From positions 96,288-160,287 of the forward strand of contig JBNKBE010000004.1 in assembly GCA_050287085.1 (NCBI GenBank): a stretch of 64,000 nt of DNA, in the 5' to 3' direction. The notes under the pieces are model-generated. The model saw only the letters and a program-made list of their open reading frames with translations. It was not told where the DNA came from and did no database searches. The stretch is from Polyangiaceae bacterium (lineage in GTDB: Bacteria; Myxococcota_A; Polyangia; Polyangiales; Polyangiaceae). Shown here in pieces: positions 25,264 through 56,025 of this stretch. The translations under genes and the position numbers were made by a program. Numbering within the stretch: the first letter of the stretch is position 1; every line of letters starts with the position of its first letter.

Positions 25264-27258
25264 CTACAGACCCCGCAGCGAGGCCATTGCTACTCGCTGC
25301 AGGTGGACCTCGGGCAGAAGCTCCCCGTAGGAGAGCACCGGCAGGTGGGGAAAGTCCGTTTCTAGCAAGCGGCGCACGAAGCGCCGGACGTCAGCTTGTG
25401 TGAGCAGGACGCGAGCCGGCGCCTGCTGGTCTTCAGCGCTCTGCAGAGCGCGCCGGACAGCGGTTACGACGTCTCGCGCCTGGGGCGGCGATAGGGTTAG
25501 AAAAGCGCCTCCGCTGGTGCGTGAGATGGCGCCCCGGACCGCGTCTTCGAGTTCCGGCTCGAGCAATAGAACGGGCAGGGTGCCGGCCCCCATCGTGGCC
25601 TGGTGGGTGAGCTCTCGGCGCAATTGGCTGCGAACGAATTCCGTTAGGTTGAGCGGATCGCGATCGTTTTGTGCGACCTGGGCCAGCGCCTCCAAGATGG
25701 CTTTCAGGTTGCGAATGTTCACCTGCTCCTCGACTAGACGACGGAGGACGTCGCTCAGCAGGCCAACGCTCACCGGTTTGGGCGTCACCTGGCGTACCGT
25801 TGCGGGGGCTATGTGCTCGAGTCGGTCGAGCAGCATCTGAGTCTCCGCGATTCCGATGAAGTCCGTAGCACGCCGACGGAGCGTCGCCATCAAACGATCC
25901 ATCAACGTCACGGCGAGGTCTTCGGGGGCCGTTTCCGGCGCGAGCGTTATGGTCTGGACCGGCACTTCGAATAGCGAAAGCACCACTGCGCGGCTGGGCA
26001 GCGCCGGGTTGGTGCGTATCACGCAAGCGGGCAGCGGCGTTCCGAGGTCGCGAAACAAGACCTCGCGAATTGCGTTGGGCACCGAGCGCAGGCCCGGGCG
26101 TACGAGCTCGTCGTGGGTTTCGGCGTCGTCGAGCCAGGGCTCCAAGTCGGCCGCCATCTCGAGGGACCATGGCACCACAACGGGCACGAAGCGCGCTCGT
26201 CGGACGGAAGAAGACATGTCCCGAGCCAGTTCGACGGCGCTTTCTTCGCTGGTTTCAGCGCGAGGTGCCGGCCGGCGCGAAACCATGAAGAGCAATCCGC
26301 CAATGGTGATCAAAGGGAAGAAGGGTAGCCCTGGGGTCAGAGCCAGACCCACGATGAATACCGCGGCAACGAAGAGCGCCTTCGGCGTTCGAAGGAGCTG
26401 TTGAGTGAGCTCCTTGCCCAGGGCGTGTTCGTCTTCTTCGCTGGCCACCCGCGTTACGAGAATGCCGGCTGCGGTCGCCAAGATAAGAGCCGGGATCTGT
26501 GACACCAGACCGTCGCCAATCGTCAGCAGACCGTAGCGCTTGAGCGCATCGCTGGCATTCATATCGCGCTGGAACACGCCGATCGCGAGGCCGCCCAGCA
26601 GATTGATCCCCGTGATCAGGAAGGACGCGATGACGTCGCCCTTGACGAACTTCATCGCGCCGTCCATCGCGCCGTAGAACTGGCTCTCTCGTGCGAGCTT
26701 ACGGCGTTGACGCTTTGCTTCCGCGCCGTCGATGCCGCCGGCTCGTAGCTCGGCATCGATCGCCATCTGTTTTCCCGGCATTGCGTCCAGGGCGAAGCGC
26801 GCGCCGACCTCGGCAACCCGTTCACTTCCTTTGGCAATGACGACGAACTGGATGATCGAAAGGATCAGGAAGATGACCCCACCGACCACGTAGTTGCCGC
26901 GCACTACGAAGTCTCCGAAAGCCGAAATCATGGCGCCCGCGTCGGCCTGGAGCAAAATGAGGCGCGTTGACGAGACGTTGAGGGCCAGCCGCACCAGCGT
27001 TGTCAGCAGGAGAATGGAGGGAAATGCGGCGATCTTGAGGGGCTCTGTGATGTAGAGCGTGACCAGTAGGATCGTGATCGCCAAGGCCATATTGGAGCTG
27101 ATCAACAGGTCCAGGAGCCAGGTAGGCAGCGGGACTATCATCAGGCCCACGATGCCGATCACGAGCCCGGCGAGCGCGGCGTCGGGCGATGACAAACTCG
27201 GTTGCCGCTCGCGGCGGAGCAGCGCATCACGAGAGTCTGGAGAAGACGGCATAGACAT
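25264..27258 (-). CDS. sctV: Type III export gate protein, FlhA/SctV (FHIPEP) family
   Basis: FPSILLLTTLVRLALNVSSTRLIL, KGSERVAEVGARFALDAMPGKQMAIDAEL, FYGAMDGAMKFVKGD, TIGDGLVSQIPAL, VLSYGEL. Confidence 0.95.
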   Translation of the reverse strand: MSMPSSPDSRDALLRRERQPSLSSPDAALAGLVIGIVGLMIVPLPTWLLDLLISSNMALAITILLVTLYITEPLKIAAFPSILLLTTLVRLALNVSSTRLILLQADAGAMISAFGDFVVRGNYVVGGVIFLILSIIQFVVIAKGSERVAEVGARFALDAMPGKQMAIDAELRAGGIDGAEAKRQRRKLARESQFYGAMDGAMKFVKGDVIASFLITGINLLGGLAIGVFQRDMNASDALKRYGLLTIGDGLVSQIPALILATAAGILVTRVASEEDEHALGKELTQQLLRTPKALFVAAVFIVGLALTPGLPFFPLITIGGLLFMVSRRPAPRAETSEESAVELARDMSSSVRRARFVPVVVPWSLEMAADLEPWLDDAETHDELVRPGLRSVPNAIREVLFRDLGTPLPACVIRTNPALPSRAVVLSLFEVPVQTITLAPETAPEDLAVTLMDRLMATLRRRATDFIGIAETQMLLDRLEHIAPATVRQVTPKPVSVGLLSDVLRRLVEEQVNIRNLKAILEALAQVAQNDRDPLNLTEFVRSQLRRELTHQATMGAGTLPVLLLEPELEDAVRGAISRTSGGAFLTLSPPQARDVVTAVRRALQSAEDQQAPARVLLTQADVRRFVRRLLETDFPHLPVLSYGELLPEVHLQRVAMASLRGL

Positions 27259-27265
27259 GACCAGG

Positions 27266-28411
27266 TTAACTCGGAAGACTGAAGAGCGTCAGTACCCCGG
27301 TGTAGAGCTGAAGGGCAGGTGCTTCGCAGTAGGGTGCGATCTCAAACGCTGATTGGAAGCCACAGAAGGGCGTCCTTGGAAAGCGCTCCCGGAGCACACG
27401 CGCGTCGACGTGGGGCGTCTGATGCAAACCAACGCCGCGGCCACTGCAATTGAAATACAGCCCGAAGCGTGGCTCCGCGCCGGCGAGTTGTCGCTGCAGA
27501 TCGCGGCATAACCCTTCAAAGGTCGAGCGGGCAGCGCCCGCGTTGCGCACACCGAATGTCATGAAGCAGCCCTCCTCGACCTCCGAACTGATCAGCAAGC
27601 CGCGTCGACTCGGATCGATGCCTTGGATGCCTCGCACCAGCATGTCGCCCGGACCGCCGTCGTCAGGAGGGCGATGGGCCAGAATTGTGAGCAGCAAGGG
27701 GCGGCCTTCGACCTGGCTGCCCAGTTGCTCCAGCACTGTGAGGGCCGGAGCTCCCTCGAGTTCCAGCACCATCGAGCCCTCCGCGCGGGTGACGCGCTTG
27801 AGCGGGCTGAGCAACTCGAAGGAGTGGGCGGTGCGCGTCAACGCAGACGGCCCACCGAGCTGTACCGCGATGCCTTGGAGCTTGCGGACTCTTCCCGCTT
27901 CCAACAGCAGGATCCCGGGTTGTCCGTGGGTGCCGGCGCCGAAGATGTGCGGGTTGTTCACCGCGGGACGCGCTTGCCACACCTGTTCGAGGGCGACGGC
28001 TTCGGCTCGTAGAAAGGTGAGCACCGGACGTGGCCGTCGGCCGCCGAAAGTCCACAGCTGCTCGAGATCGTCGGCCGAGAGCTGGCTGTGTTCGCAACAC
28101 TGCACCTGGAGCTCGGTGTTGGCTAGCACCAAGCCGGTCAGCCCCAAGGCCCCCTCGTGCTCACTCCCTTGAGCTATCAGGCCGAGGCCGCACGCAACGA
28201 CAATGGGCGGAGCCTGCGGCCCCAGCTCGCGCAGGGTGCGGCTCGCCAGAGCGTCCACGTCTTGCTCCTTCAGGCCGCTGCAAAAAACTAGGGCGAGCGA
28301 CGGAACACTGGCGCAGGTCCTGAGCGCATGAACCACGGCCCGCGCGCAAGCGTCCACCGCTGCAACCCCGGGTGGCGGCAGTGCCTCGAACGCGGTCGCC
28401 ACGACTCCCAT
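27266..28411 (-). CDS. FIST N/C domain (NosP-like) sensory protein
   Basis: VTRAEGSMVLELEGAPAL, LVRGIQGID, GLYFNCSGRG, GFQSAFEIAP, YTGVL; start uncertain. Confidence 0.85.
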   Translation of the reverse strand: MGVVATAFEALPPPGVAAVDACARAVVHALRTCASVPSLALVFCSGLKEQDVDALASRTLRELGPQAPPIVVACGLGLIAQGSEHEGALGLTGLVLANTELQVQCCEHSQLSADDLEQLWTFGGRRPRPVLTFLRAEAVALEQVWQARPAVNNPHIFGAGTHGQPGILLLEAGRVRKLQGIAVQLGGPSALTRTAHSFELLSPLKRVTRAEGSMVLELEGAPALTVLEQLGSQVEGRPLLLTILAHRPPDDGGPGDMLVRGIQGIDPSRRGLLISSEVEEGCFMTFGVRNAGAARSTFEGLCRDLQRQLAGAEPRFGLYFNCSGRGVGLHQTPHVDARVLRERFPRTPFCGFQSAFEIAPYCEAPALQLYTGVLTLFSLPS

Positions 28412-28590
28412 CTTGGAGGACGTTATTTGTGTCCGGGGCGTGTTGCAAGGCATTCGCGGTTTCCCGCGGCGGCCCTGGCAGTGGGCGACTCCCACCACAA
28501 GCCTCGCCCCAATATCGCTAGAGTTTGGGGTCCCCGCTCCTTCCGACCGTTAGGTCCCGTCCCCCGGGGGCACCAACGAGAAAAAACGGG

Positions 28591-48889: not shown

Positions 48890-49177
48890 GCGCACGCGGC
48901 CCGACGTTTGGGGCGTGCAGATCGGCTCAAGGTCGAGCGCCTGGGGAACGCTATTGGCCGCCTCGCGCGGGGGGGATCGCAGCGTGCCGTGGGAAGGTGG
49001 GCGGCGGTAGGGGCTAGCACAGCAATTGTGTAGCAAGGGTGAAACCCAGATCTCCGTCGCGCGACTGGGGTGCGAGCGCGGATTACAATCGACGCGTGGC
49101 CCTCGACCGTGTAGACGGCCCTGAACTAGACTTTGCGAGCCCTTGTGGGGACACCGCTCGCTCTGATGAAGGACTTG

Positions 49178-51664
49178 ATGATGAACGACAGATTTAGACT
49201 GCTGCTGCTGCCGTTGCTTTGGCTGAGCGCCGCGGCGCTCGCGTTCGGCTGTAGCACGGACGCAAAGAAGGCTGACGGCGACGGCCCAGGCTGCCCGAGC
49301 GAGTACAGCTTGTGCTCGACGCCGACTCAGGACCAATGCGTCAACTTGCAGCTCGACGCCAAGAACTGCGGCAGCTGTGGTCAGCAGTGTGGTGCGGGCC
49401 AAGTCTGTAGTGCTGGTCAGTGCGCGTGTCCGGTGGGCAAAGAGCTCTGTGGAGATACGTGTGTTGACATTGCAATAGATCCGAACAACTGCGGCGTCTG
49501 CGGAAAGTCCTGCGCAGCGGAGGGTGCCAGCTTCTGCTCTTCGGGCGCGTGCACCAACGAATGTGGAGCGCCCAACAGCATTTGCGCCAGCGGGGCTACG
49601 GCGTTGTGCGTCGACCTGCAATCGAGCGTCGACAACTGTGGCGGCTGCGGAAAGACCTGCGGCGGCGCCCAGAGCTGTAGTGCGGGTAGCTGCGCGTGCG
49701 CCGACGGATCACCGGCGTGTGGTGCTGAGTGCTGCGGCGCTGGGCAAGAGTGCAACGCCGCGGGTACGGCCTGTGTGGCGGTCAGCGCAAACGGTGGCGC
49801 TGGCGGCGGCGGCGGCGGCAACGGCGGCGGCGGGATGTCCAACGGCGGAATGTCCAACGGCGGAGCCGCTCCAAAGCCCGTGGACGACCGCGAATGCCCT
49901 GCGGCCAGCGACGGCGTGATCGTCGACTTCGAAGAAGGCTCAGCGGCGGTGTTGCCGCTCGAAGGTCGCCAAGGCGCCTTCGAACCCTACGGCGATCCGG
50001 ATGGCACCTTTTCCGTCGCTGAGATCGAAGAAGAGGGCGCTGAAGCCTGCAATAAGGGGGTTTTTCACGCCGCGGGCTCGGGGTTCAGCACCTACGTGGG
50101 CGTGGGTACGACCTTTGCCTCCTCCGGGGTGGTGGACGAGGAATACGTACCCGTTCAATACGACGCGAAGTCCCGGGGCTACGTGGGGGTTGCCTTCCGC
50201 GCCAAGGCCGGGCCGCAACAACAAGGCCCGGTTCGTATCAGCTTGTCCATTCCTTCATCCGAGGGTGAGCCTCACGGGGACGGCACCTGCGGGACGGACG
50301 AGGGCGAGCAATGCTGGAACCACTTGGGGCATTTTCTCATCGACGACGAGGCTCTCGGCTCCGAGTGGAAAGACTACACCTTGTGTTTCGATGATCTGCA
50401 CACGATGTGGGTGCCCGGTACCGTGCAGCCACCCGCGCGCGCCAAGCTGCCGGAGCAACTGCTGAAGTTCCAGGTGCAGTTCAACCAGGGTTTTGATCCA
50501 GCGACCACGAAGCAATACCCGTATTCCCAGTCTTTCGACTTCTACATCGACGACATCAGCTTCGTCAAAGACGGCTGCCCAAGGCCGTCACCCTTCGAGT
50601 CGTCACCGAATACCACACAGCCTTTCGGCAGCAATATGCCGGTGGGTACGTGCATGCCGGTGCCCAATGCGGCCGTTCATAACACGGAGATTGCCCAGGC
50701 CTACCTCCGCTGGAAGAGCACTTTTGTGGGCGCAGATGGCACCGTTTTCGACCCTGAGCAGGGCAACCGCGTCATCTCCGAAGGCATCGGCTACGGCATG
50801 TTGTTGTCCGCCGCGATGGGTGACAAGGAGCTTTTCGACCGGATCTGGGGTTGGGCGGAAGGCAAGATGGGGGGCGGCTTGCTCGGTTGGGACAATGGCA
50901 ACTCGGGCTCAGGCTCCGCTACCGACGCTGACACCGACATGGCGTACGCCTTGTACATGGCCGATCACCAGTGGGGGGGCTACGCGGCCGCAGCCGCTGA
51001 CCTTGCGACCAAGGCGGCCGCAGCAGATCTCGATGGCACCAACCTGAAGGCGGGTAGCCAATTCAACGCGGGCAACCCAAGTTACTTCTCTCCCGGCTTC
51101 TACCGCAAGCTCGGTGGCGCGTGGGCGTCGGTGGTGGGCCCGGGTTATCAGTGGATGGATTCCTGCGACAGCAGCTTTGGCGGGGGTCAGAACGGCATCA
51201 TCTCCGACTGGTGTGACTTCGGTGGCAACGCCGTGTCATCATCCTCCACCGGGGCCAACGTCACGAGCGAGACCTGTCCCAATAGCGGCGAGGCATGCTC
51301 CGCCTACGACGCCTCGCGGATCCCTTGGCGGGTGGGTTATGACCTCTGCTTCAACGCCCAAGGAGCAGCGCTGGCCGCGCGCATGGTGCAAACCTATCAG
51401 GACCGTTTTCAACGCTTGGACTTGGCTCAGGCGGGGATCAGTCCCAGTGGTAGCCCCTACGAGGATCTCCAGGGAAGCGAGATGGCTGTGATCGGATCTC
51501 TGGCGGTAGCCGCTTGGGCCACCAACAACGTCGCTGCTCGTGATGTAGCGTTCTACGCAACGCTCGATATCTTGCAGCGCCCTGAGTACTACAAGACCTA
51601 TTACTCCACCACTCTGGGATTGTTGACGATGACCTTGATGACGGGCAACTGGCCCGCGCCTTAG
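49178..51664 (+). CDS. Lipoprotein: Cys-rich (Stig1-like) repeats, carbohydrate-binding-like module and glycoside hydrolase family 8 domain
   Basis: Lipobox AFGC; CVD...D..NCG.CG repeats; GH8 motifs SEGIGYGML, SATDAD.DMAYAL, NPSYFSP, YDASRIPWR. Confidence 0.85.
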   Translation: MMNDRFRLLLLPLLWLSAAALAFGCSTDAKKADGDGPGCPSEYSLCSTPTQDQCVNLQLDAKNCGSCGQQCGAGQVCSAGQCACPVGKELCGDTCVDIAIDPNNCGVCGKSCAAEGASFCSSGACTNECGAPNSICASGATALCVDLQSSVDNCGGCGKTCGGAQSCSAGSCACADGSPACGAECCGAGQECNAAGTACVAVSANGGAGGGGGGNGGGGMSNGGMSNGGAAPKPVDDRECPAASDGVIVDFEEGSAAVLPLEGRQGAFEPYGDPDGTFSVAEIEEEGAEACNKGVFHAAGSGFSTYVGVGTTFASSGVVDEEYVPVQYDAKSRGYVGVAFRAKAGPQQQGPVRISLSIPSSEGEPHGDGTCGTDEGEQCWNHLGHFLIDDEALGSEWKDYTLCFDDLHTMWVPGTVQPPARAKLPEQLLKFQVQFNQGFDPATTKQYPYSQSFDFYIDDISFVKDGCPRPSPFESSPNTTQPFGSNMPVGTCMPVPNAAVHNTEIAQAYLRWKSTFVGADGTVFDPEQGNRVISEGIGYGMLLSAAMGDKELFDRIWGWAEGKMGGGLLGWDNGNSGSGSATDADTDMAYALYMADHQWGGYAAAAADLATKAAAADLDGTNLKAGSQFNAGNPSYFSPGFYRKLGGAWASVVGPGYQWMDSCDSSFGGGQNGIISDWCDFGGNAVSSSSTGANVTSETCPNSGEACSAYDASRIPWRVGYDLCFNAQGAALAARMVQTYQDRFQRLDLAQAGISPSGSPYEDLQGSEMAVIGSLAVAAWATNNVAARDVAFYATLDILQRPEYYKTYYSTTLGLLTMTLMTGNWPAP

Positions 51665-51813: not shown

Positions 51814-53358
51814 TCAGTACCAGCACACGGACAGACCGTCGAGCAGCCCCGCACCCCCACCCAGGTAGGGCCGGCACTCCCCCTCTTCGCAGGGGTCGTT
51901 GGGGGAACAAACGACGAGATCATAGAAGCCCATGTACGTATCTCGATCTGCGCATTCTTCCCGCGTGGTGCACGTGACCAGGTCGCGAACGGTGGCGCCC
52001 GTCACGTGGACGCAGCATATCTCGTCAGAATGGCAGTCACTGTGGGCATCGCATTCGACGGCGTCCGCCCCGTGCAGCGAGCCCCCCGCTTGGTGGCCAC
52101 AGGCCTCTGGTCCGTCGGTGGTGCAGAAGGGCTCTGCGCGCCTGGCGCAGCAGGTTTCCCCGGTATGGCAAACGACGTTGTAGCCTGCGTTGCAGGTGAA
52201 CGCGCCGCGCGTGTTGCGGGTGTCGAGGCAGTCACCCTCGTAGCAGAGAAAGTCACAGCTCGTATGTTCGATGACGCCTCGAACGCAGTGAGCGAGCACG
52301 CCGCCCTTCCACTCGAGATTCCAGCCATCCCACTCTGGGGGCTCACACCAGTCGGCGCTTCCAGGAATACAAGCCACACAGTCGCCTCCGTGGCATAGGG
52401 GCGCCGAGCTCGGGCAGGTCCGCGCGACCCAGGTGCCAGCGAGGCATTCGAGACGTGTGCCTTCGCCCTCACAACGCGTCGAGCCATTGTCGCACACGCA
52501 GCGCCCTTCCACTGCGTCGCAGAGGGGGGTTGTGTCCTCGCAGGTGGCTACAGCATTCCAGCTCCCGCTTTCGCATCGTTCAAGGCGTGGCTTGGCGAGA
52601 CCCTGGCAGCGAAATGTGCCCTCAGCGCATGCGCACGCGCCGGTCTCTTGATTGCAAATCGGCGTGTCGTTCGAGCAAGGGGCTTGGGCAACCCACCGGT
52701 CATCGCGGCACACTAGGGGTGTTGTGCCCGAGCATCGAGTGGACAATCCGGCCTCGGTGCTGCACTCAACACAACTCGATCCCTGGCATACGGGCGTGCT
52801 CCCCTCGCAGGCGCTGGCCTGGAATTCCCCGTATTCGTTGCAGGTCTCGACAGCGCTCAGATCTGCGGAGCACTGCTCTTGGCCCGCAGAGCAGGTGCCG
52901 CAGGTTCCGGTGGCCGTCAGGCACACCGGGCTCTTGCCCTCGCAGCGCTCGGCGAGTTCATAGCTTCCGTCGGCGTTGCACTCGTAGCTCGCAGCGCTTC
53001 GGCAGATCGGCGGCGACTGGCCCGGCTCACATTCTAGGCACCGCGTGCCCCCGCAGAAGGGGGTGTCTTTGGGGCAGGTCATCGTTTTCCATCGGCCCTC
53101 GGCACATACCCGCAGGGTTGCTGGATCAAGGCAAGTCTTGTCGCTGGGGGCGCACGTTGCGCCGGCGTCTCGGACCCAGGGCGTACCGGCGTCGCTGGGT
53201 TCATTGCGAATGCGGCCTGGGCCAGCGTCCGCGGCAGCGTCTGCTGGGGTGAGCGTTTCTGTCCACTCAAAGGGACCTGGATCGCACGCCAGCGCAGCCA
53301 GAAGCCCCAAGGGCCAGGCCGCGAAGGCCGGCAATAGGTGAAGGGAACGCACGCTCAT
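51814..53358 (-). CDS. Cys-rich repeat lipoprotein
   Basis: Lipobox LAALAC; about 8 repeats of C..G..RC.G....C..G.W....C....P.C; ATG overlaps the PAAR stop (ATGA). Confidence 0.8.
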   Translation of the reverse strand: MSVRSLHLLPAFAAWPLGLLAALACDPGPFEWTETLTPADAAADAGPGRIRNEPSDAGTPWVRDAGATCAPSDKTCLDPATLRVCAEGRWKTMTCPKDTPFCGGTRCLECEPGQSPPICRSAASYECNADGSYELAERCEGKSPVCLTATGTCGTCSAGQEQCSADLSAVETCNEYGEFQASACEGSTPVCQGSSCVECSTEAGLSTRCSGTTPLVCRDDRWVAQAPCSNDTPICNQETGACACAEGTFRCQGLAKPRLERCESGSWNAVATCEDTTPLCDAVEGRCVCDNGSTRCEGEGTRLECLAGTWVARTCPSSAPLCHGGDCVACIPGSADWCEPPEWDGWNLEWKGGVLAHCVRGVIEHTSCDFLCYEGDCLDTRNTRGAFTCNAGYNVVCHTGETCCARRAEPFCTTDGPEACGHQAGGSLHGADAVECDAHSDCHSDEICCVHVTGATVRDLVTCTTREECADRDTYMGFYDLVVCSPNDPCEEGECRPYLGGGAGLLDGLSVCWY

Positions 53359-53735
53359 GGGCCGATGAGAACGCTTGGGCAGCCGGCGATGACGCGGCCG
53401 CCTTGGCTCGTCGAATCGTTCTGCCGTGCTGCGGGCTTGCCGCCGATCAGAACCGACGAAGACCCTGTTATGATGGTGTCCTGGCCGTGGGTGCAGCCTG
53501 CCTGATCGCCGAGCCGCGCTGCGGGTTTGCCACATAGAAGAACGCGTGGGTCGCCCGTGAGCACGGGCCCTGCGCCACGCGGAACCGGGGTAGGGACCCC
53601 CAGCGGGCCAGATACGACGTGAACGCCACCGCAAGTGTGGGCGTCACCAACGCGAGCGGCTGGCCCGCTGCTGGAGGTGGCGGTGGCGGTGAGTAGGGCG
53701 GCAAGTGCAAGCCAAAAAACGTGTTTGGGCGTCAT
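53355..53735 (-). CDS. PAAR-repeat spike-tip protein with N-terminal signal peptide
   Basis: Three motifs PAARVGD, PAARLGD, PAARQND and C-terminal GCPSVLIG; preceded by MTPKHVFWLALAALLTATATSSSG; AAGGAAG RBS. Confidence 0.9.
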   Translation of the reverse strand: MTPKHVFWLALAALLTATATSSSGPAARVGDAHTCGGVHVVSGPLGVPTPVPRGAGPVLTGDPRVLLCGKPAARLGDQAGCTHGQDTIITGSSSVLIGGKPAARQNDSTSQGGRVIAGCPSVLIGP

Positions 53736-53746
53736 AGCACTTCCTT

Positions 53747-54118
53747 TCAGTTCAGCTTGATGAGGCCGCCGCGTACCTCAACCAACGACTGGCCCCGGAG
53801 TTCAAGGGTGGTGCTGGCTTCGACCTGCAGCTTTGAGCCGGCGTGCAGCTTGGTTTCCGCACCGGACTCCACCTTGAGGTGTCGCCCAGCCTTCAGTGTT
53901 AGGTCGCGTCCGGCCTCGATGGTCAAGGAATCGCCCTGAATCATCAGGAATCGGCGCAGTGTCGCATTCTCCTCTTCCAGTCGAGCCACCCGACTCTGCA
54001 GGGCGACCAATGCCGGATCGGAGGGGGTGGGACGCCCAGCGATCCGCGGCGCCGCTCCGGCCACCGCCGCCGCTGCCAAGGCCAAACAAAAAGTTCCGAC
54101 GACTGCCGATCGCATCAT
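53747..54118 (-). CDS. Signal peptide + coiled coil + gp5/VgrG C-terminal-like beta-helix (mini-spike)
   Basis: MMRSAVVGTFCLALAAAAVAGA; LVALQSRVARLEEENATL heptads; 8-residue repeats LTIEAGRD/LTLKAGRH/LKVESGAE/TKLHAGSK/LQVEASTT/LELRGQSL ending GGLIKLN; GGAGGAG RBS. Confidence 0.75.
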   Translation of the reverse strand: MMRSAVVGTFCLALAAAAVAGAAPRIAGRPTPSDPALVALQSRVARLEEENATLRRFLMIQGDSLTIEAGRDLTLKAGRHLKVESGAETKLHAGSKLQVEASTTLELRGQSLVEVRGGLIKLN

Positions 54119-54249
54119 TGACGTACTCCTCCGCTGGCCAACGTTCAGAAACGTTCGGCCCAAGGCCCCTAGGATACCCGTCAGAGGCAGGCTTGTGTAG
54201 CCCGCTCTCCAAGTAAGCCCCCAGCTAACGCCGAGAAGGAGGGCTACGC

Positions 54250-56025
54250 CTATTCGTCCGAGAGTGGGATCGGGATCCAGAACAGCTTGGCTTCGGTTTT
54301 GCGCCCGTCACGCTCGTAGCCAACAAGACCGAATAGGATATCCCACCAATGGCCGCGCCGAGTCTCGCCGAAGCCGAACGCGGGCAGGACGTGCACGCTC
54401 CAATTGTCTTTGCGCGTTGTCTTGCGCTCACGGTAGAGCACGTTGCCCATCAACTGGGTCAGGCTGTCGGGCCGCGCGAAGCGCCAGAATACCGGGAAGA
54501 CAACCGTCGTGCGCTCCGTGGGATCGTCGAAGTCGAAGAGAAGCGGCGCCAGCACGCGGTGCGAGCTCGTTCTGTCGCGCCCGAAGTAGGCGAGCGGAAA
54601 TAGGTTGAGGTTCCAACCGGTAATGCTCGTCTCGTAGTTGAATAGCGGCGTGATCCAGCGGCTGTGGGATAGACTGTGGCGCTTGAAACTGCCGTAAAAA
54701 GGGAACACAGCCCAGCTGTCTTCGCGCGGGCTTTGGTAGGAATAGTAGAACGGCAGGATCCACTTCTGGTCGATGCCTGCTGCCGGCTCGCGGTAGAGCC
54801 ACACCAAGGGCGAGAACATGTCGAGTTCTCGGCGTCCGCGGTGACGAGCGTAGCCCCACGTGGCAAAAGTCGTGTCGCCAGCTTCGCCCCGGCGGGAGAG
54901 GTAGAACGGATTAATGAAGAGCTCTGCCGACTTGTCCCAGCTGTAGTGAAAGAAAGGAAGCAGCGTCGTGCTGCGCCGATCTTTGCCCCAACTGCTCCAG
55001 TACAAAGGCATTAGGTGGAGGCTGTCGGCGTCGGGCCCGTGCTCGCGGTAGTACGGACCCCAGACATCGAGCTCGGTTTCAGCGTCGAGGTCGGCGCCGT
55101 GATAGTGCAGCAGCGGGGGGATCAGCCGGTAGTTGCTGGTGTCGTCCCGGCCGGCGAAATAGAAGGGCGCCACCCCCAAGTCTCGTTCGGTGGTCTCCGA
55201 CGAGAAGCAACCGTCACCCTTCTTCCAGGAACAGAAGCCTGGACCAAAGAGGTTGAGACCCCCCTCCGCGTCCTGGCTCATGTAGGTGAGCAGGGGCGGT
55301 ATAACTGCGTAGCCACCATCTGGGCGCGTGCCGAAAAAGTAGAGGGGAGCCAGCCAATCATCGCTCTTGCCCTGGCCGCGCCGATTCAGGAATGGACCGA
55401 CGAGGGTCGTGCGACTCTCGGCGTCACGCAGATTCCAAAAAACGGGGAAGACGATATCGTCAGCTCGCTCAGCGCTGCGGCGGTTGTAATACAGCCCGCC
55501 CCATAGCGAGGCTCTGTCGGGGACCGCTGGATCAGCCAGGCTTGGCTGCTGACGCTCAAACCACAAGGGAAATGCGGTACGCAGCTGATAGCTACCGCTC
55601 TTCTCCTGGTAGTACAGCCCGTAGAAGTCGCGCTCCGCAAACCCGCTCCGGCCCCGCTCGGCGTTGTTGTCGACGGTATCTGTGCCAAGCTGAGCGAGCA
55701 GCTCATCGCTCAAGGCCAAAGGATCCGCCGGCAAGCTCGGCTCACTGCCTTCGGGCAGCGTCGTTTGCCCGCTGCCGGATGCGGCGTGCAGTTCTGGGGT
55801 TCCCGGGGGCGCTTTGCTCTGACCTTTCCCCTTGGAGGGGCGCGCCGAACCACCGCCCGGACTTGCCAAGGGATCTTGCCCAAGGCCCGCGCCTCCAATC
55901 CCGCGATTGAAGGGGTCGTTTTGAGCCCAGGCTTGGGCTTGGGGAAGCAAGGCCCAAACCAGAGCCGACGCTGCCACGCGACAACACGCCCACCGGGAAC
56001 GCCGCAGTCGGCGGTGCTTCACCAC
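54250..56025 (-). CDS. Exported protein with many aromatic-rich beta-hairpin repeats (probable outer-membrane protein)
   Basis: Signal-like ALVWALLPQAQAWAQ; about 20 repeats of (L/F)xP(L/F)(F/Y)(W/Y); C-terminal LFWIPI. Confidence 0.7.
   Translation of the reverse strand: MVKHRRLRRSRWACCRVAASALVWALLPQAQAWAQNDPFNRGIGGAGLGQDPLASPGGGSARPSKGKGQSKAPPGTPELHAASGSGQTTLPEGSEPSLPADPLALSDELLAQLGTDTVDNNAERGRSGFAERDFYGLYYQEKSGSYQLRTAFPLWFERQQPSLADPAVPDRASLWGGLYYNRRSAERADDIVFPVFWNLRDAESRTTLVGPFLNRRGQGKSDDWLAPLYFFGTRPDGGYAVIPPLLTYMSQDAEGGLNLFGPGFCSWKKGDGCFSSETTERDLGVAPFYFAGRDDTSNYRLIPPLLHYHGADLDAETELDVWGPYYREHGPDADSLHLMPLYWSSWGKDRRSTTLLPFFHYSWDKSAELFINPFYLSRRGEAGDTTFATWGYARHRGRRELDMFSPLVWLYREPAAGIDQKWILPFYYSYQSPREDSWAVFPFYGSFKRHSLSHSRWITPLFNYETSITGWNLNLFPLAYFGRDRTSSHRVLAPLLFDFDDPTERTTVVFPVFWRFARPDSLTQLMGNVLYRERKTTRKDNWSVHVLPAFGFGETRRGHWWDILFGLVGYERDGRKTEAKLFWIPIPLSDE

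What the first reader, a model, noticed from the sequence alone, without database searches (positions are those of the whole stretch)
51814..54118. Candidate Sec-exported mini-spike system: signal-peptide VgrG/gp5-like spike, signal-peptide PAAR and Cys-rich lipoprotein, with no injector
Seen in sequence: three minus-strand genes are tightly linked. There is an 11-bp gap with an RBS between the first two and an ATGA overlap between the last two. Gene 1 (123 aa) is a signal peptide, a short coiled coil, then 8-residue beta repeats ending GGLIKLN. Gene 2 is a complete three-motif PAAR behind a hydrophobic signal peptide. Gene 3 is a lipoprotein built of disulfide-like repeats. No Hcp/tube, sheath, baseplate, holin or full-length VgrG gene is in this 64-kb window. 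Established: gp5/VgrG C-terminal beta-helices trimerise and are capped by one PAAR. In T6SS, eCIS and phage tails both are made in the cytoplasm without signal peptides and are delivered by sheath contraction. Inference: only the needle tip has been kept and rerouted through Sec, with the coiled coil replacing the gp27/OB hub as trimerisation domain. It may be displayed on the cell surface or on vesicles by the lipoprotein, for example for prey contact, adhesion or membrane puncture in a predatory myxobacterium. I do not know of a described system with this architecture.
Basis: partly seen in the sequence, partly recalled or inferred. Interest (0 to 1): 0.92.

Follow-up and report, generated by a model that had tools for sequence, protein, structure and literature searches.

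The report
Exported mini-spike with PAAR cap
Two tightly linked genes encode a small needle-like protein and its pointed cap, parts otherwise known from phage tails and type VI secretion, but here both carry export signals and sit in genomes that lack such a machine.

Summary
Three minus-strand genes lie at 51814-54118 with an 11-nt gap and an ATGA overlap. Gene 1 (123 aa) has a signal-peptide-like N-terminus, a short coiled coil and 8-residue beta repeats homologous to VgrG/gp5 spike helices. Gene 2 is a three-repeat PAAR behind a hydrophobic leader. Gene 3 is a 59-Cys lipoprotein-like protein.

New here:
- Gene 1 belongs to an unnamed family of small proteins (leader, coiled coil, spike helix).
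- Some members end at the helix. Others carry one fused PAAR-like repeat.
- In 6 of 6 genomes found with a helix-only member, a leader-bearing PAAR gene follows within -4 to +11 nt, and it is the genome's only PAAR.
- 5 of those 6 genomes have no TssC.
- A 3:1 complex model scores 0.89, against 0.00 for the controls.

Gene 3 is not conserved with the pair. The window's genome does hold a contractile-tail prophage on another contig.

Verdict: this is a Sec-exported spike-and-cap pair that does not depend on type VI secretion, a new variant of a known kind. Its function is unknown, and export and assembly are inferred, not shown. I found no description of it in five literature searches.

The parts
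54126..54132 (-). Shine-Dalgarno-like GGAGGAG, 7 nt before the gene 1 ATG
   Evidence: Read. It favours the start at 54118 over later in-frame start codons (codons 37, 44 and 59), which have no such site.
53747..54118 (-). Gene 1: exported mini-spike protein (123 aa plus stop)
   Evidence: It belongs to a family of leader + coiled coil + spike-helix proteins.
54050..54118 (-). Gene 1 residues 1-23: Sec-type signal-peptide-like segment (MMR, hydrophobic core, AVA-GA / AGA-AP sites)
   Evidence: My heuristic gives a maximum 10-residue Kyte-Doolittle mean of 2.61. 40 of 41 aligned family members are leader-like by the same rule. Cleavage is inferred, not shown.
53945..54013 (-). Gene 1 residues about 36-58: short coiled coil (ALVALQSRVARLEEENATLRRFL)
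   Evidence: This is the most conserved family stretch, consensus LEQRVAxLEAQNAxLR. This part of the profile hits GCN4 and designed coiled coils in the PDB.
53750..53944 (-). Gene 1 residues 59-123: eight 8-residue beta repeats ending GGLIKLN (triple beta-helix of gp5/VgrG type)
   Evidence: Lag-8 autocorrelation 0.41. BLASTP to the C-terminus of a VgrG: 30% over 97 columns, E 1e-6. Family profile against solved spikes: E 1.6e-11. Residues 117-123 of all three copies touch the PAAR in the model.
53355..53735 (-). Gene 2: PAAR cap protein with N-terminal leader (126 aa plus stop)
   Evidence: Pfam PAAR_motif E 9.6e-22. It is the only PAAR in the genome.
53670..53735 (-). Gene 2 residues 1-22: signal-peptide-like leader (MTPKH, VFWLALAALLTATA, TSS)
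   Evidence: No alternative start codon inside it. The three best hits (P0154-P0156), and 7 of the 27 homologues fetched, carry such a leader ending 2-5 residues before the first PAAR motif. So do the paired PAARs of G1242 and G1233.
51814..53358 (-). Gene 3: Cys-rich lipoprotein-like protein (514 aa plus stop), ATGA overlap with gene 2. Probably a neighbour, not a core part.
   Evidence: 59 Cys and repeats of about 38 aa with six Cys each (by eye; a strict script pattern caught two). No Pfam or NCBIfam match. The repeat module recurs in four other loci of the same genome. It is not next to the pair in the other five genomes.

Best explanation
Genes 1 and 2 encode a two-part spike that is made outside the cytoplasm and works without a contractile injector.

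Proposed mechanism:
- Both proteins are exported unfolded through Sec, and their leaders are cut off.
- In the periplasm three gene 1 chains are brought into register by the short coiled coil. They wind into a gp5/VgrG-type triple beta-helix about eight rungs long.
- One PAAR protein then closes the blunt end. Each of its three repeats adds a strand onto the last rung (GGLIKLN) of one chain.
- In relatives whose helix protein carries one PAAR-like repeat at its own C-terminus, three such tails would form the same cap in cis.

The coiled coil stands where VgrG, gp5 and P2 gpV have their hub-binding OB and gp27-like domains. The rod therefore cannot dock onto a tail tube.

Shown here: the homology, the conserved pairing, the conserved leaders, and the absence of type VI markers.

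Inferred: export, leader cleavage, trimer formation, capping.

Function (my guess, low confidence): a small rigid capped rod acting in the envelope or on the surface, as a membrane-contacting or adhesive pin. The PAAR may serve mainly as a structural cap for the open helix end rather than as a driven penetrator.

Gene 3 is most likely an unrelated neighbouring Cys-rich secreted protein that has become translationally coupled in this genome.
For: Homology of gene 1 to spike helices:
- The family profile hits solved spike proteins of contractile systems: 9gtr_q 1.6e-11, 7b5h_AJ 1.4e-7, 7aef_q 7.9e-7, VgrG 9rce_F 2.6e-6, Gp5 9vzk_q 1.1e-4.
- 8 of 41 family members hit DUF2345.
- PHROGs baseplate hub / tail lysozyme, E 1.8e-5 for gene 1.

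The family:
- Of the 150 listed representative-library hits, 91 are 230 aa or shorter.
- 50 of these have leader, coiled coil and helix; 33 of the 50 carry a fused PAAR-like tail and 17 do not.
- The tail is one PAAR repeat. The family HMM positions 134-161 hit two or three of the PAAR repeats in the four paired PAARs scanned (three in G002/G015). hhalign gives E 5.8e-5, probability 65.7%. 4 of 41 members hit Pfam PAAR_motif.

Pairing:
- 6 of 6 genomes with a helix-only member have a PAAR ORF starting -4 to +11 nt after its stop: G000, G002, G015, G1242, G1392, G1233.
- The helix proteins are only 26-41% identical and the PAARs 49-58%, apart from G1242 against G1392 (67%) and the near-identical G002 and G015.
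- The paired PAAR is the only Pfam PAAR hit in each genome.
- TssC was found in 1 of the 6 genomes, G015, which has 7% contamination.

Selection: dN/dS for the PAAR between G002 and G015 is 0.06 (11 synonymous against 2 non-synonymous changes).

Complex model (3 x gene 1 residues 34-123 plus PAAR residues 24-126):
- Score 0.89 in all three runs; best of 3 controls 0.00.
- This mark was reached by 116 of 157 solved complexes and 2 of 215 mismatched pairs.
- The runs agree in at least 96% of contacts, and the partner's pLDDT is at least 92.
- Contacts: gene 1 residues 117-123 of every copy with PAAR residues 64-69, 94-99 and 121-126.
Against: - No experiment and no dedicated signal-peptide predictor were used. 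Export rests on my heuristic and on conservation.
- The complex model may pass from memory of solved VgrG/gp5-PAAR structures, and my own alignments were used.
- Gene 2 has R and Q at two columns where 90% or more of 42 aligned PAARs have His (positions 53 and 111). Its metal site may be altered.
- dN/dS for the helix gene is 0.41, on only 11 changes.
- 12 of the 91 small hits have the coiled coil but fail my leader rule. Some look truly leaderless (P0070, P0095, P0110; L093), so export is not universal in the wider family.
- In G1392 the PAAR is split by an IS4/5 transposase, so the pair is dispensable there.
- The genome does hold contractile-tail phage genes.
- No conserved third gene, and no clue to function, was found.
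Confidence: 0.6

Rival explanations
1. One reading: the spike-PAAR complex is held or displayed by the Cys-rich lipoprotein (gene 3) on the cell surface or on vesicles.
For: - ATGA overlap of genes 2 and 3.
- Gene 3 has a leader and an even number of Cys after Cys25 (58), which fits an extracytoplasmic disulfide-rich protein.
- In G1233 a different Cys-rich lipoprotein-like gene lies divergently next to the pair.
Against: - No gene 3 relative lies beside the pair in G002, G015, G1242 or G1392.
- The G1233 neighbour has another repeat type and the opposite orientation.
- The gene 3 repeat module occurs in four other loci of the same genome and in large proteins of 8 other genomes among the 41 searched.
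- Its best orthologue (G017, 41% identity) lies convergent to the GH8 gene as in the window, in an assembly without any PAAR or gene 1 match. That contig ends inside the gene, so this is open.
Confidence: 0.15
2. The hydrophobic N-termini are uncleaved signal anchors. The spike and its cap are tethered to the inner membrane and point into the periplasm.
For: - The same hydrophobic segments.
- Gene 2's candidate cleavage region (ATA-TSSSG) is less canonical than AxA.
Against: - Most family members have short hydrophobic cores followed by classic AxA sites (ALA-QQ, AQA-EP, AHA-EE, AFA-AD) read.
- In leader-bearing PAARs the leader ends 2-5 residues before the first PAAR motif, where leaderless PAARs begin.
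Confidence: 0.12
3. A phage-derived appendage that matures in the periplasm and joins a phage or tailocin particle at lysis. Earlier notes of this scan propose this route for soil-phage fibres with Sec signals.
For: - The earlier notes describe phage spike and fibre genes with export signals (unchecked leads).
- The family is related to phage central spikes. A prophage spike in G078 has an OB fold, a helix and one PAAR-like tail.
- A prophage with contractile-tail genes lies on C24.
Against: - The pair lies among housekeeping genes, with no phage genes in the 40 other window ORFs scanned.
- No relative was found in viral contigs with the alignment used.
- Gene 1 lacks the OB/hub domain that seats a central spike in a baseplate. 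The established view is that tail assembly starts on that hub, so a spike could not be added late.
Confidence: 0.07
4. Ordinary cytoplasmic spike-tip parts for a contractile device encoded elsewhere (the C24 prophage or an unassembled locus). The 'leaders' would be mis-called starts or T6SS-type transmembrane segments.
For: - The genome is 96.8% complete in 160 contigs, and the C24 prophage runs off its contig before the baseplate genes.
- PAARs with N-terminal transmembrane segments exist in T6SS effectors (prePAAR class, PMC7773334; seen only as a search listing with the start of its abstract).
Against: - No alternative start exists for gene 2, and a strong SD sits before gene 1.
- Leaders are conserved across 26-58% identical orthologues.
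- No AARxxDxxxH motif precedes the hydrophobic segment, and there is no toxin domain (sequence).
- TssC is absent in 5 of the 6 pair-bearing genomes.
Confidence: 0.05
5. A decaying relic of a lost T6SS or prophage, without function.
For: - The pair is patchy: 1 of 13 sampled genomes of the genus besides the window's own in one draw.
- The PAAR is broken by an IS in G1392.
Against: - Both reading frames are intact in 5 of 6 genomes despite 26-58% identity, with order, spacing and leaders kept.
- PAAR dN/dS is 0.06.
- 50 small leader-bearing family representatives were found at 50% clustering.
Confidence: 0.03

Closest known systems
VgrG-PAAR and T4 gp5-gp5.4 spike tips (solved gp5/VgrG helix fragments with PAAR, such as 4jiw)
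   Same: A triple beta-helix of 8-residue repeats whose blunt end is capped by one three-repeat PAAR. In the model each PAAR repeat pairs with the last strand of one chain. Sequence homology is shown.
   Different: - Gene 1 has no gp27-like or OB hub domains.
- A coiled coil takes their place.
- Both proteins carry export leaders.
- No sheath, Hcp or TssE was found in the genome.
Phage P2 gpV / phi92-type central spikes with a C-terminal Apex domain (bioRxiv 10.1101/2023.02.25.529910, passages read)
   Same: One chain carries the helix and its own tip, which is built three-fold from three chains. This is what I infer for the 33 family members with a fused tail. [quoted passage not shown]
   Different: - Apex domains are defined there by an HxH iron cage. 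The fused tails I read have no HxH and instead align to a PAAR repeat.
- gpV has an N-terminal OB fold and no leader.
Francisella-type minimal VgrG (NCBIfam NF041249, 163 positions)
   Same: A very short spike protein that is little more than the helix. Gene 1 matches its C-terminal part weakly (E 0.011).
   Different: The score is 15.8 bits against a cut-off of 100. The Francisella protein is cytoplasmic and part of a T6SS (from my own knowledge).
Split, helix-only spike proteins inside T6SS-like loci of related genomes (L024, L087, L089)
   Same: Small proteins (152-199 aa) made only of the spike helix and ending G(G/N)L(V/I)K(L/I)(N/G).
   Different: They have no leader and no coiled coil. 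One I inspected sits between a VgrG-N-like gene and what looks by eye like a baseplate (TssF-type) gene, which I did not scan.
prePAAR effectors with transmembrane domains (PMC7773334; seen only as a search listing with the start of its abstract)
   Same: A PAAR with an N-terminal hydrophobic segment.
   Different: Those are T6SS toxins with a prePAAR motif, Eag chaperones and toxin domains. Here there is no such motif, no toxin domain and no T6SS.
Bdellovibrio MAT fibres (PMC10769870, abstract read)
   Same: Phage-like trimeric proteins that a predatory bacterium displays on its surface without a phage particle.
   Different: MAT proteins are long fibres with adhesive tips. No sequence relation was tested here, and they have no PAAR.

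Membership tests
PAAR repeat proteins (Pfam PF05488) | Sequence match above the curated cut-off, with three PAAR repeats | tested here: met
   77.4 bits against a cut-off of 27, E 9.6e-22, in 3 stretches. Three repeats are also hit by the family tail profile.
PAAR repeat proteins (Pfam PF05488) | Caps the blunt end of a trimeric spike helix | tested here: met
   By model only: score 0.89 against best control 0.00, with contacts to residues 117-123 of all three chains. The pass may come from memory of solved complexes.
PAAR repeat proteins (Pfam PF05488) | Conserved His/Cys metal site | tested here: inconclusive
   C35, C81 and H33 are kept. Two columns that are His in 90% or more of 42 aligned PAARs are R53 and Q111 here. 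The paired PAARs of G015, G1242 and G1233 keep both His.
PAAR repeat proteins (Pfam PF05488) | Encoded with, and used by, a contractile injection system. Zhang et al. 2012 state that PAAR motifs with an associated TM helix occur in toxins strictly in T6SS gene contexts (PMC3482391, passage read). | tested here: not met
   No TssC, TssE/gp25, Hcp, Phage_sheath_1 or Baseplate_J in the genome. The neighbours are housekeeping genes. TssC is absent in 5 of the 6 pair-bearing genomes.
VgrG / gp5 spike proteins | C-terminal triple beta-helix of octad repeats | tested here: met
   Pfam DUF2345 only reaches 17.3 bits against a cut-off of 30.7 for gene 1 itself.
VgrG / gp5 spike proteins | N-terminal gp27-like (Phage_GPD) and OB-fold hub domains | tested here: not met
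   The protein is 123 aa with no such Pfam match. A leader and a coiled coil occupy the N-terminus.
VgrG / gp5 spike proteins | Cytoplasmic assembly, no signal peptide | tested here: not met
   The leader-like N-terminus is conserved in 40 of 41 aligned family members. Export itself is not shown.
P2 gpV-type spikes with Apex domain | [quoted passage not shown] | tested here: not met
   Gene 1 ends at the helix with no HxH. The fused tails of relatives that I read have no HxH.
prePAAR-TMD T6SS effectors | AARxxDxxxH motif before the transmembrane segment, and a C-terminal toxin domain (motif recalled) | tested here: not met
   The hydrophobic segment is at residues 6-20, before any AAR. The protein ends with the third PAAR repeat.
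Francisella TssI/VgrG (NF041249) | Score above the curated cut-off | tested here: not met
   15.8 bits against a cut-off of 100.
Bacterial lipoproteins (gene 3) | Lipobox before Cys+1 | tested here: inconclusive
   LAALAC fits the PROSITE-type rule as I recall it, but it is also an AxA site. No predictor was available.

The most novel reading that the evidence does not exclude
A widespread class of free-standing, Sec-exported spikes that never meet a contractile sheath. The class would be a phage-derived triple beta-helix rod, registered by a coiled coil and closed either by a separate PAAR or by three single PAAR repeats, one per chain, forming a truly three-fold cap. Cells would use it in the envelope or on the surface as a membrane-inserting or prey- or surface-contacting pin. 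PAAR would then not be a marker of contractile injection, and the single-repeat tails would show how the pseudo-three-fold PAAR domain could arise from, or break down into, a trimeric apex.
Probability: 0.25. Interest if true: 0.85.

Novelty: new variant of a known kind. Interest (0 to 1): 0.72.

Why it matters
PAAR and VgrG/gp5 helices are treated as signatures of contractile injection systems, and genome annotation names them so. One close homologue here is labelled 'Zn-binding protein involved in type VI secretion'.

A conserved, leader-bearing spike-and-cap pair in genomes without TssC would have three consequences:
- Such annotations are wrong for this subfamily.
- The spike tip has a life outside injection machines.
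- The pair offers a minimal two-protein system, about 100 residues each, for studying how triple beta-helices fold and are capped, in an oxidising compartment.

The cis and trans forms of the cap also bear on the origin of the PAAR fold.

Tried and rejected
Searches that gave little:
- A word-indexed homologue search with gene 1 found only itself.
A smaller alignment gave 3 genome loci, of which only one, a Polyangiaceae MAG, was a family member.
- Two metagenome scans (alignment A6, then protein P0028) and one viral-contig scan confirmed nothing. The neighbourhoods of the metagenomic family members therefore remain unseen.
- Phylum-wide scans returned mostly VgrG or gpV-type helices. The scan of 401 genomes of the window's phylum gave the window's own genome as its only leader-bearing member. 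The scan of 401 genomes of the phylum of a Methylobacterium record gave one leaderless coiled-coil and helix relative.
- PADLOC had no match for the three proteins or the upstream 591-aa protein.
- No RNA holder was listed among public runs, so I laid no reads.
- Cluster look-ups gave only 'hypothetical protein' and no organism names.

Candidate extra parts that I rejected:
- The upstream 591-aa protein is a conserved core gene (21 of 25 genomes). In G002 and G015 it lies on other contigs than the pair.
- The weak gpD-like protein with a hydrophobic N-terminus on contig C10 was considered as a missing hub. It was found in 1 of 41 genomes, the window's own.
- Foreign origin by base composition: the GC3 of the three genes (0.72, 0.68, 0.73) is close to that of their neighbours (0.74-0.79).
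- The extra Cys in 'VLICG' is enriched in leader-bearing PAARs but is also present in 4 of 33 leaderless ones, so I did not use it.

Literature: five searches and passages of PMC7376260 and PMC3482391 gave no description of a signal-peptide PAAR or an exported spike helix. Subscription-only papers are not covered.
Full report
**1. What is there**

Three minus-strand ORFs occupy 51814-54118.

Gene 1 (53747-54118, 123 aa):
- It begins MMRSAVVGTFCLALAAAAVAGAAP.
- It continues with a heptad stretch, ALVALQSRVARLEEENATLRRFL.
- It then runs through eight 8-residue units (LTIEAGRD, LTLKAGRH, ...) to GGLIKLN.
- Hydrophobic autocorrelation over the last 65 residues peaks at lag 8 (0.41).
- GGAGGAG lies 7 nt before the ATG.

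Gene 2 (53355-53735, 126 aa):
- It starts 11 nt after the gene 1 stop, behind AAGGAAG.
- It scores 77.4 bits on Pfam PAAR_motif (cut-off 27, E 9.6e-22, three stretches).
- No start codon lies between its ATG and the first PAAR motif, so its leader MTPKHVFWLALAALLTATATSSS is translated.

Gene 3 (51814-53358, 514 aa):
- It overlaps gene 2 by ATGA.
- It has a leader ending LAALAC and 59 Cys, 58 of them after Cys25.
- By eye most of it is built of roughly 38-residue six-Cys repeats; a strict pattern in my script caught two.
- It has no Pfam or NCBIfam match.

The GC3 of the three genes (0.72, 0.68, 0.73) is close to that of their neighbours (0.74-0.79).

**2. Surroundings**

The 40 other window ORFs that I scanned are housekeeping or unrelated genes: SurE, Lon, SMC, S1, HisB/F/H, HtpG, a GH8 enzyme with a Stig1-like Cys-rich part, YceG, transketolase, GH3, phosphoglucomutase, an FHIPEP protein and others. 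None is a tube, sheath, baseplate or VgrG gene.

The whole genome (6.2 Mb, 160 contigs, 96.8% complete):
- It has one PAAR, this one.
- It has no VipB/TssC, GPW_gp25, Phage_sheath_1, Hcp or Baseplate_J.
- It has two gp19-type tube genes. One lies in a prophage on contig C24, with capsid, XkdF protease, a weak sheath-C match, a T4 baseplate protein and a tape measure, running off the contig end. The other is a remnant on C6 next to an AbiE pair.

So 'no injector' is true of the window and of type VI secretion, but not of contractile tails in the genome as a whole.

The genome shares its GTDB family with a MAG whose record is titled Polyangiaceae bacterium. Predation was not examined.

**3. Gene 1 is a spike helix without a hub**

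- On its own it reaches only sub-threshold matches: DUF2345, E 0.0044, and the Francisella mini-VgrG model, E 0.011.
- It aligns to the last 96 residues of a canonical VgrG of a class relative that ends GGLVKLN (30% over 97 columns, E 1e-6).
- A profile of gene 1 and its relatives hits solved spike proteins of contractile systems: 9gtr_q 1.6e-11, 7b5h_AJ 1.4e-7, 7aef_q 7.9e-7, VgrG 9rce_F 2.6e-6, Gp5 9vzk_q 1.1e-4. The coiled-coil part of the profile hits GCN4-type peptides.
- PHROGs gives 'baseplate hub subunit and tail lysozyme' (1.8e-5).

**4. A family**

A full HMMER search of 1.84 billion representatives with a three-sequence profile gave 208 proteins at E <= 1e-3. The 150 listed break down as follows:
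- 59 are long, mostly VgrG-sized proteins matched at their C-termini.
- 91 are 230 aa or shorter.
- Of the 91, 50 combine a leader-like N-terminus by my rule, the coiled coil and the helix.
- 12 have the coiled coil but fail the leader rule. Some have a leader by eye, and some look truly leaderless.
- 1 passes the leader rule without a coiled coil.
- 28 have neither.

The 41 members I aligned share the consensus LEQRVAxLEAQNAxLR, and 40 of the 41 pass the leader rule. Where cluster look-ups gave a name, it was 'hypothetical protein'.

There are two forms:
- 17 of the 50 lack the tail by the HMM criterion; about 14 of these end at the helix (G-x-h-h-x-h-N), like gene 1.
- 33 of the 50 go on for 30-40 residues with the consensus NGGxKPxAxxGxxVxxGxIxxGSxTVxxx.

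That tail is one PAAR repeat:
- 4 of 41 members hit Pfam PAAR_motif, best E 1.5e-7.
- The family HMM tail (positions 134-161) matches two or three of the PAAR repeats in the four paired PAARs scanned: all three in G002 and G015, all three in gene 2 (one only from position 136), and two in G1242.
- hhalign aligns it to the third repeat (E 5.8e-5, probability 65.7%, 28 columns).

A prophage spike in G078 has an OB-type N-terminus (by eye, not scanned), a helix and the same kind of tail. The family therefore looks like a phage central spike whose hub domain was replaced by a leader and a coiled coil.

**5. The pair is conserved and stands without type VI secretion**

I found helix-only members in six genomes:
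- the window's own genome;
- G002 and G015, which are of the same genus and near-identical to each other;
- G1242, G1392 and G1233, from three other genera of the family, found in a scan of 301 genomes.

In 6 of 6, a PAAR ORF follows on the same strand:
- an 11-nt gap in the window;
- a 4-nt overlap in G002 and G015;
- 7-nt gaps in the other three.

The helix proteins are mostly 26-41% identical (G1242 and G1392 67%) and the PAARs 49-58%.

All the paired PAARs have an N-terminal extension. In the window, G1242, G1392 and G1233 it looks like a Sec leader. In G002/G015 it is a basic stretch with RR followed by a short hydrophobic run, which could be a Tat-type signal (my reading, untested).

In G1392 the PAAR is split by an IS4/5 transposase.

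In each of the six genomes the paired PAAR is the only Pfam PAAR hit. TssC was found only in G015, which has 7% contamination.

The one genomic fused-tail member (Polyangiaceae MAG, L041/G1311) stands alone next to sucC, with no PAAR beside it and no TssC in the genome.

Among the 120 best of 1076 PAAR homologues, the three closest to gene 2 carry leaders. So do 7 of the 27 that I fetched, and the leader ends 2-5 residues before the first PAAR motif. The other longer homologues have C-terminal extensions instead.

Between G002 and G015 the PAAR shows 11 synonymous and 2 non-synonymous changes (dN/dS 0.06). The helix gene shows 5 and 6 (0.41), too few to weigh.

**6. Complex model**

Three copies of gene 1 (residues 34-123) and one PAAR (residues 24-126), each with its alignment, gave:
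- a score of 0.89 in all three runs, against 0.00 for the best of three controls;
- a mark reached by 116 of 157 solved complexes and 2 of 215 mismatched pairs;
- runs that agree in at least 96% of contacts, with partner pLDDT at least 92.

Residues 117-123 of each gene 1 copy touch PAAR residues 64-69, 94-99 and 121-126, one repeat per chain.

This is the known VgrG/gp5-PAAR mode and may be recalled from solved structures. It shows likeness, not binding.

**7. Gene 3 and other candidates**

Gene 3:
- Its repeat module recurs in four other loci of the same genome and in large proteins of 8 other genomes among the 41 searched.
- Only five other proteins in the 5.8-billion index match at E <= 1e-6, none with an informative name.
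- It is absent beside the pair in G002, G015, G1242 and G1392.
- G1233 has a different Cys-rich lipoprotein-like gene, divergently oriented.
- The best orthologue (G017) lies convergent to the GH8 orthologue as in the window, but the contig ends inside it.

Other candidates:
- The upstream 591-aa protein is a conserved core gene that is unlinked to the pair elsewhere.
- The weak gpD-like protein on C10 is confined to this genome.

**8. Mechanism**

The evidence best fits the following sequence:
- Both proteins are exported by Sec.
- The coiled coil drives trimerisation.
- A short triple beta-helix forms.
- The helix is capped in trans by the PAAR, or in cis by three single repeats in the fused relatives.

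Without an OB/hub domain the rod cannot sit on a tube, so nothing can drive it. A role as a force-driven penetrator is therefore unlikely. The P2 work cited above found the beta-helix to fold without its Apex, so the cap may serve stability, solubility or contact rather than folding.

What the rod does is open: an envelope pin, an adhesin, a vesicle or surface structure, or a decoy for incoming spikes. I hold 'membrane- or surface-contacting pin' only weakly.

**9. Known or new**

Five full-text searches found no account of a leader-bearing PAAR or an exported spike helix.
- Zhang et al. 2012 describe PAAR motifs with an associated TM helix as occurring in toxins strictly in T6SS gene contexts (passage).
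- In Wood et al. 2019, 'signal peptide' refers to Tle3 and Tli3, not to PAAR (passages).
- The P2 Apex preprint separates HxH Apex spikes from PAAR-capped ones (passages). The fused tails here fit neither cleanly.

Several other notes report phage fibres with Sec signals. These are unchecked leads that gave me one rival reading and the MAT paper (abstract).

**10. Verdict**

The lipoprotein and the proposed function are not.

Noticed in passing
L002 1087-2637 (G000 contig C10:147571-149118): A 516-aa protein with a hydrophobic N-terminal segment and a borderline Phage_GPD (gpD/gp27-like hub) match (29.9 bits against a cut-off of 30.1), plus a faint gp44-like second domain. It stands between an HxlR-like regulator gene and a pirin-like gene (both judged by eye). 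It was found only in this genome among the 41 searched.
   Followed up: partly
L047 (G000 contig C24:78500-94282) and L046 (contig C6:257500-271188): A prophage on C24 with a methyltransferase-XkdF protease fusion, a capsid, a 740-aa sheath-like protein, a gp19-type tube, a T4 baseplate protein and a tape measure; it runs off the contig end. C6 holds a sheath-C fragment and a tube gene beside a MerR gene and an AbiEii toxin gene.
   Followed up: partly
window 25264-27258 (-) and 27266-28498 (-): A lone FHIPEP (FlhA/SctV-type export gate) gene, E 6.6e-199, directly followed by a FIST-domain gene. No other flagellar or injectisome genes appeared among the window ORFs scanned.
   Followed up: no
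window 49133-51664 (+): A GH8 glycoside hydrolase with a leader and an N-terminal Cys-rich Stig1-like region, convergent to gene 3. The same GH8 and gene 3 arrangement occurs in G017 (L049).
   Followed up: partly
L123 1793-3047 (G1392 contig C10): The leader-bearing PAAR next to the helix gene is split into two pieces by an IS4/5-family insertion (DUF4096 and DDE_Tnp_1 ORFs).
   Followed up: yes
L067 1216-1812 (G078 contig C111): A prophage central spike with an OB-type N-terminus (by eye), a helix and a single PAAR-like C-terminal repeat without an HxH motif. It lies in what looks like a baseplate operon (not scanned). It seems to be a cis-capped phage spike that is neither a classic Apex nor a PAAR-capped spike.
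   Followed up: partly
L093 1483-2049 (G993 contig C18): A leaderless coiled-coil and helix protein ending GSKIGQN, standing alone between metabolic-looking genes (by eye) in a genome of the phylum of a Methylobacterium record. Leaderless metagenomic relatives also exist (P0070, P0095, P0110).
   Followed up: no
window 53355-53735, residues 53 and 111 of gene 2: Two His columns that are nearly invariant in 42 aligned PAARs are Arg and Gln in this protein, while its orthologues in G015, G1242 and G1233 keep His. The metal site may be changed in this copy.
   Followed up: partly
window 54250-56025 (-): A 591-aa leader-bearing protein with about 17 short repeats rich in Pro and aromatic residues (PLYFF, PFYYSY, PVFWRF; counted by eye) and no Pfam match. 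It is conserved in 21 of 25 relatives searched and lies next to YceG in three of the nine relatives checked.
   Followed up: partly
L124 335-1441 (G1233 contig C46): A 368-aa lipoprotein-like protein built of CxGKxCGxDGCGGxCGxC-type repeats, divergent from the helix-PAAR pair. It has a different repeat type from gene 3 and no Pfam match.
   Followed up: no
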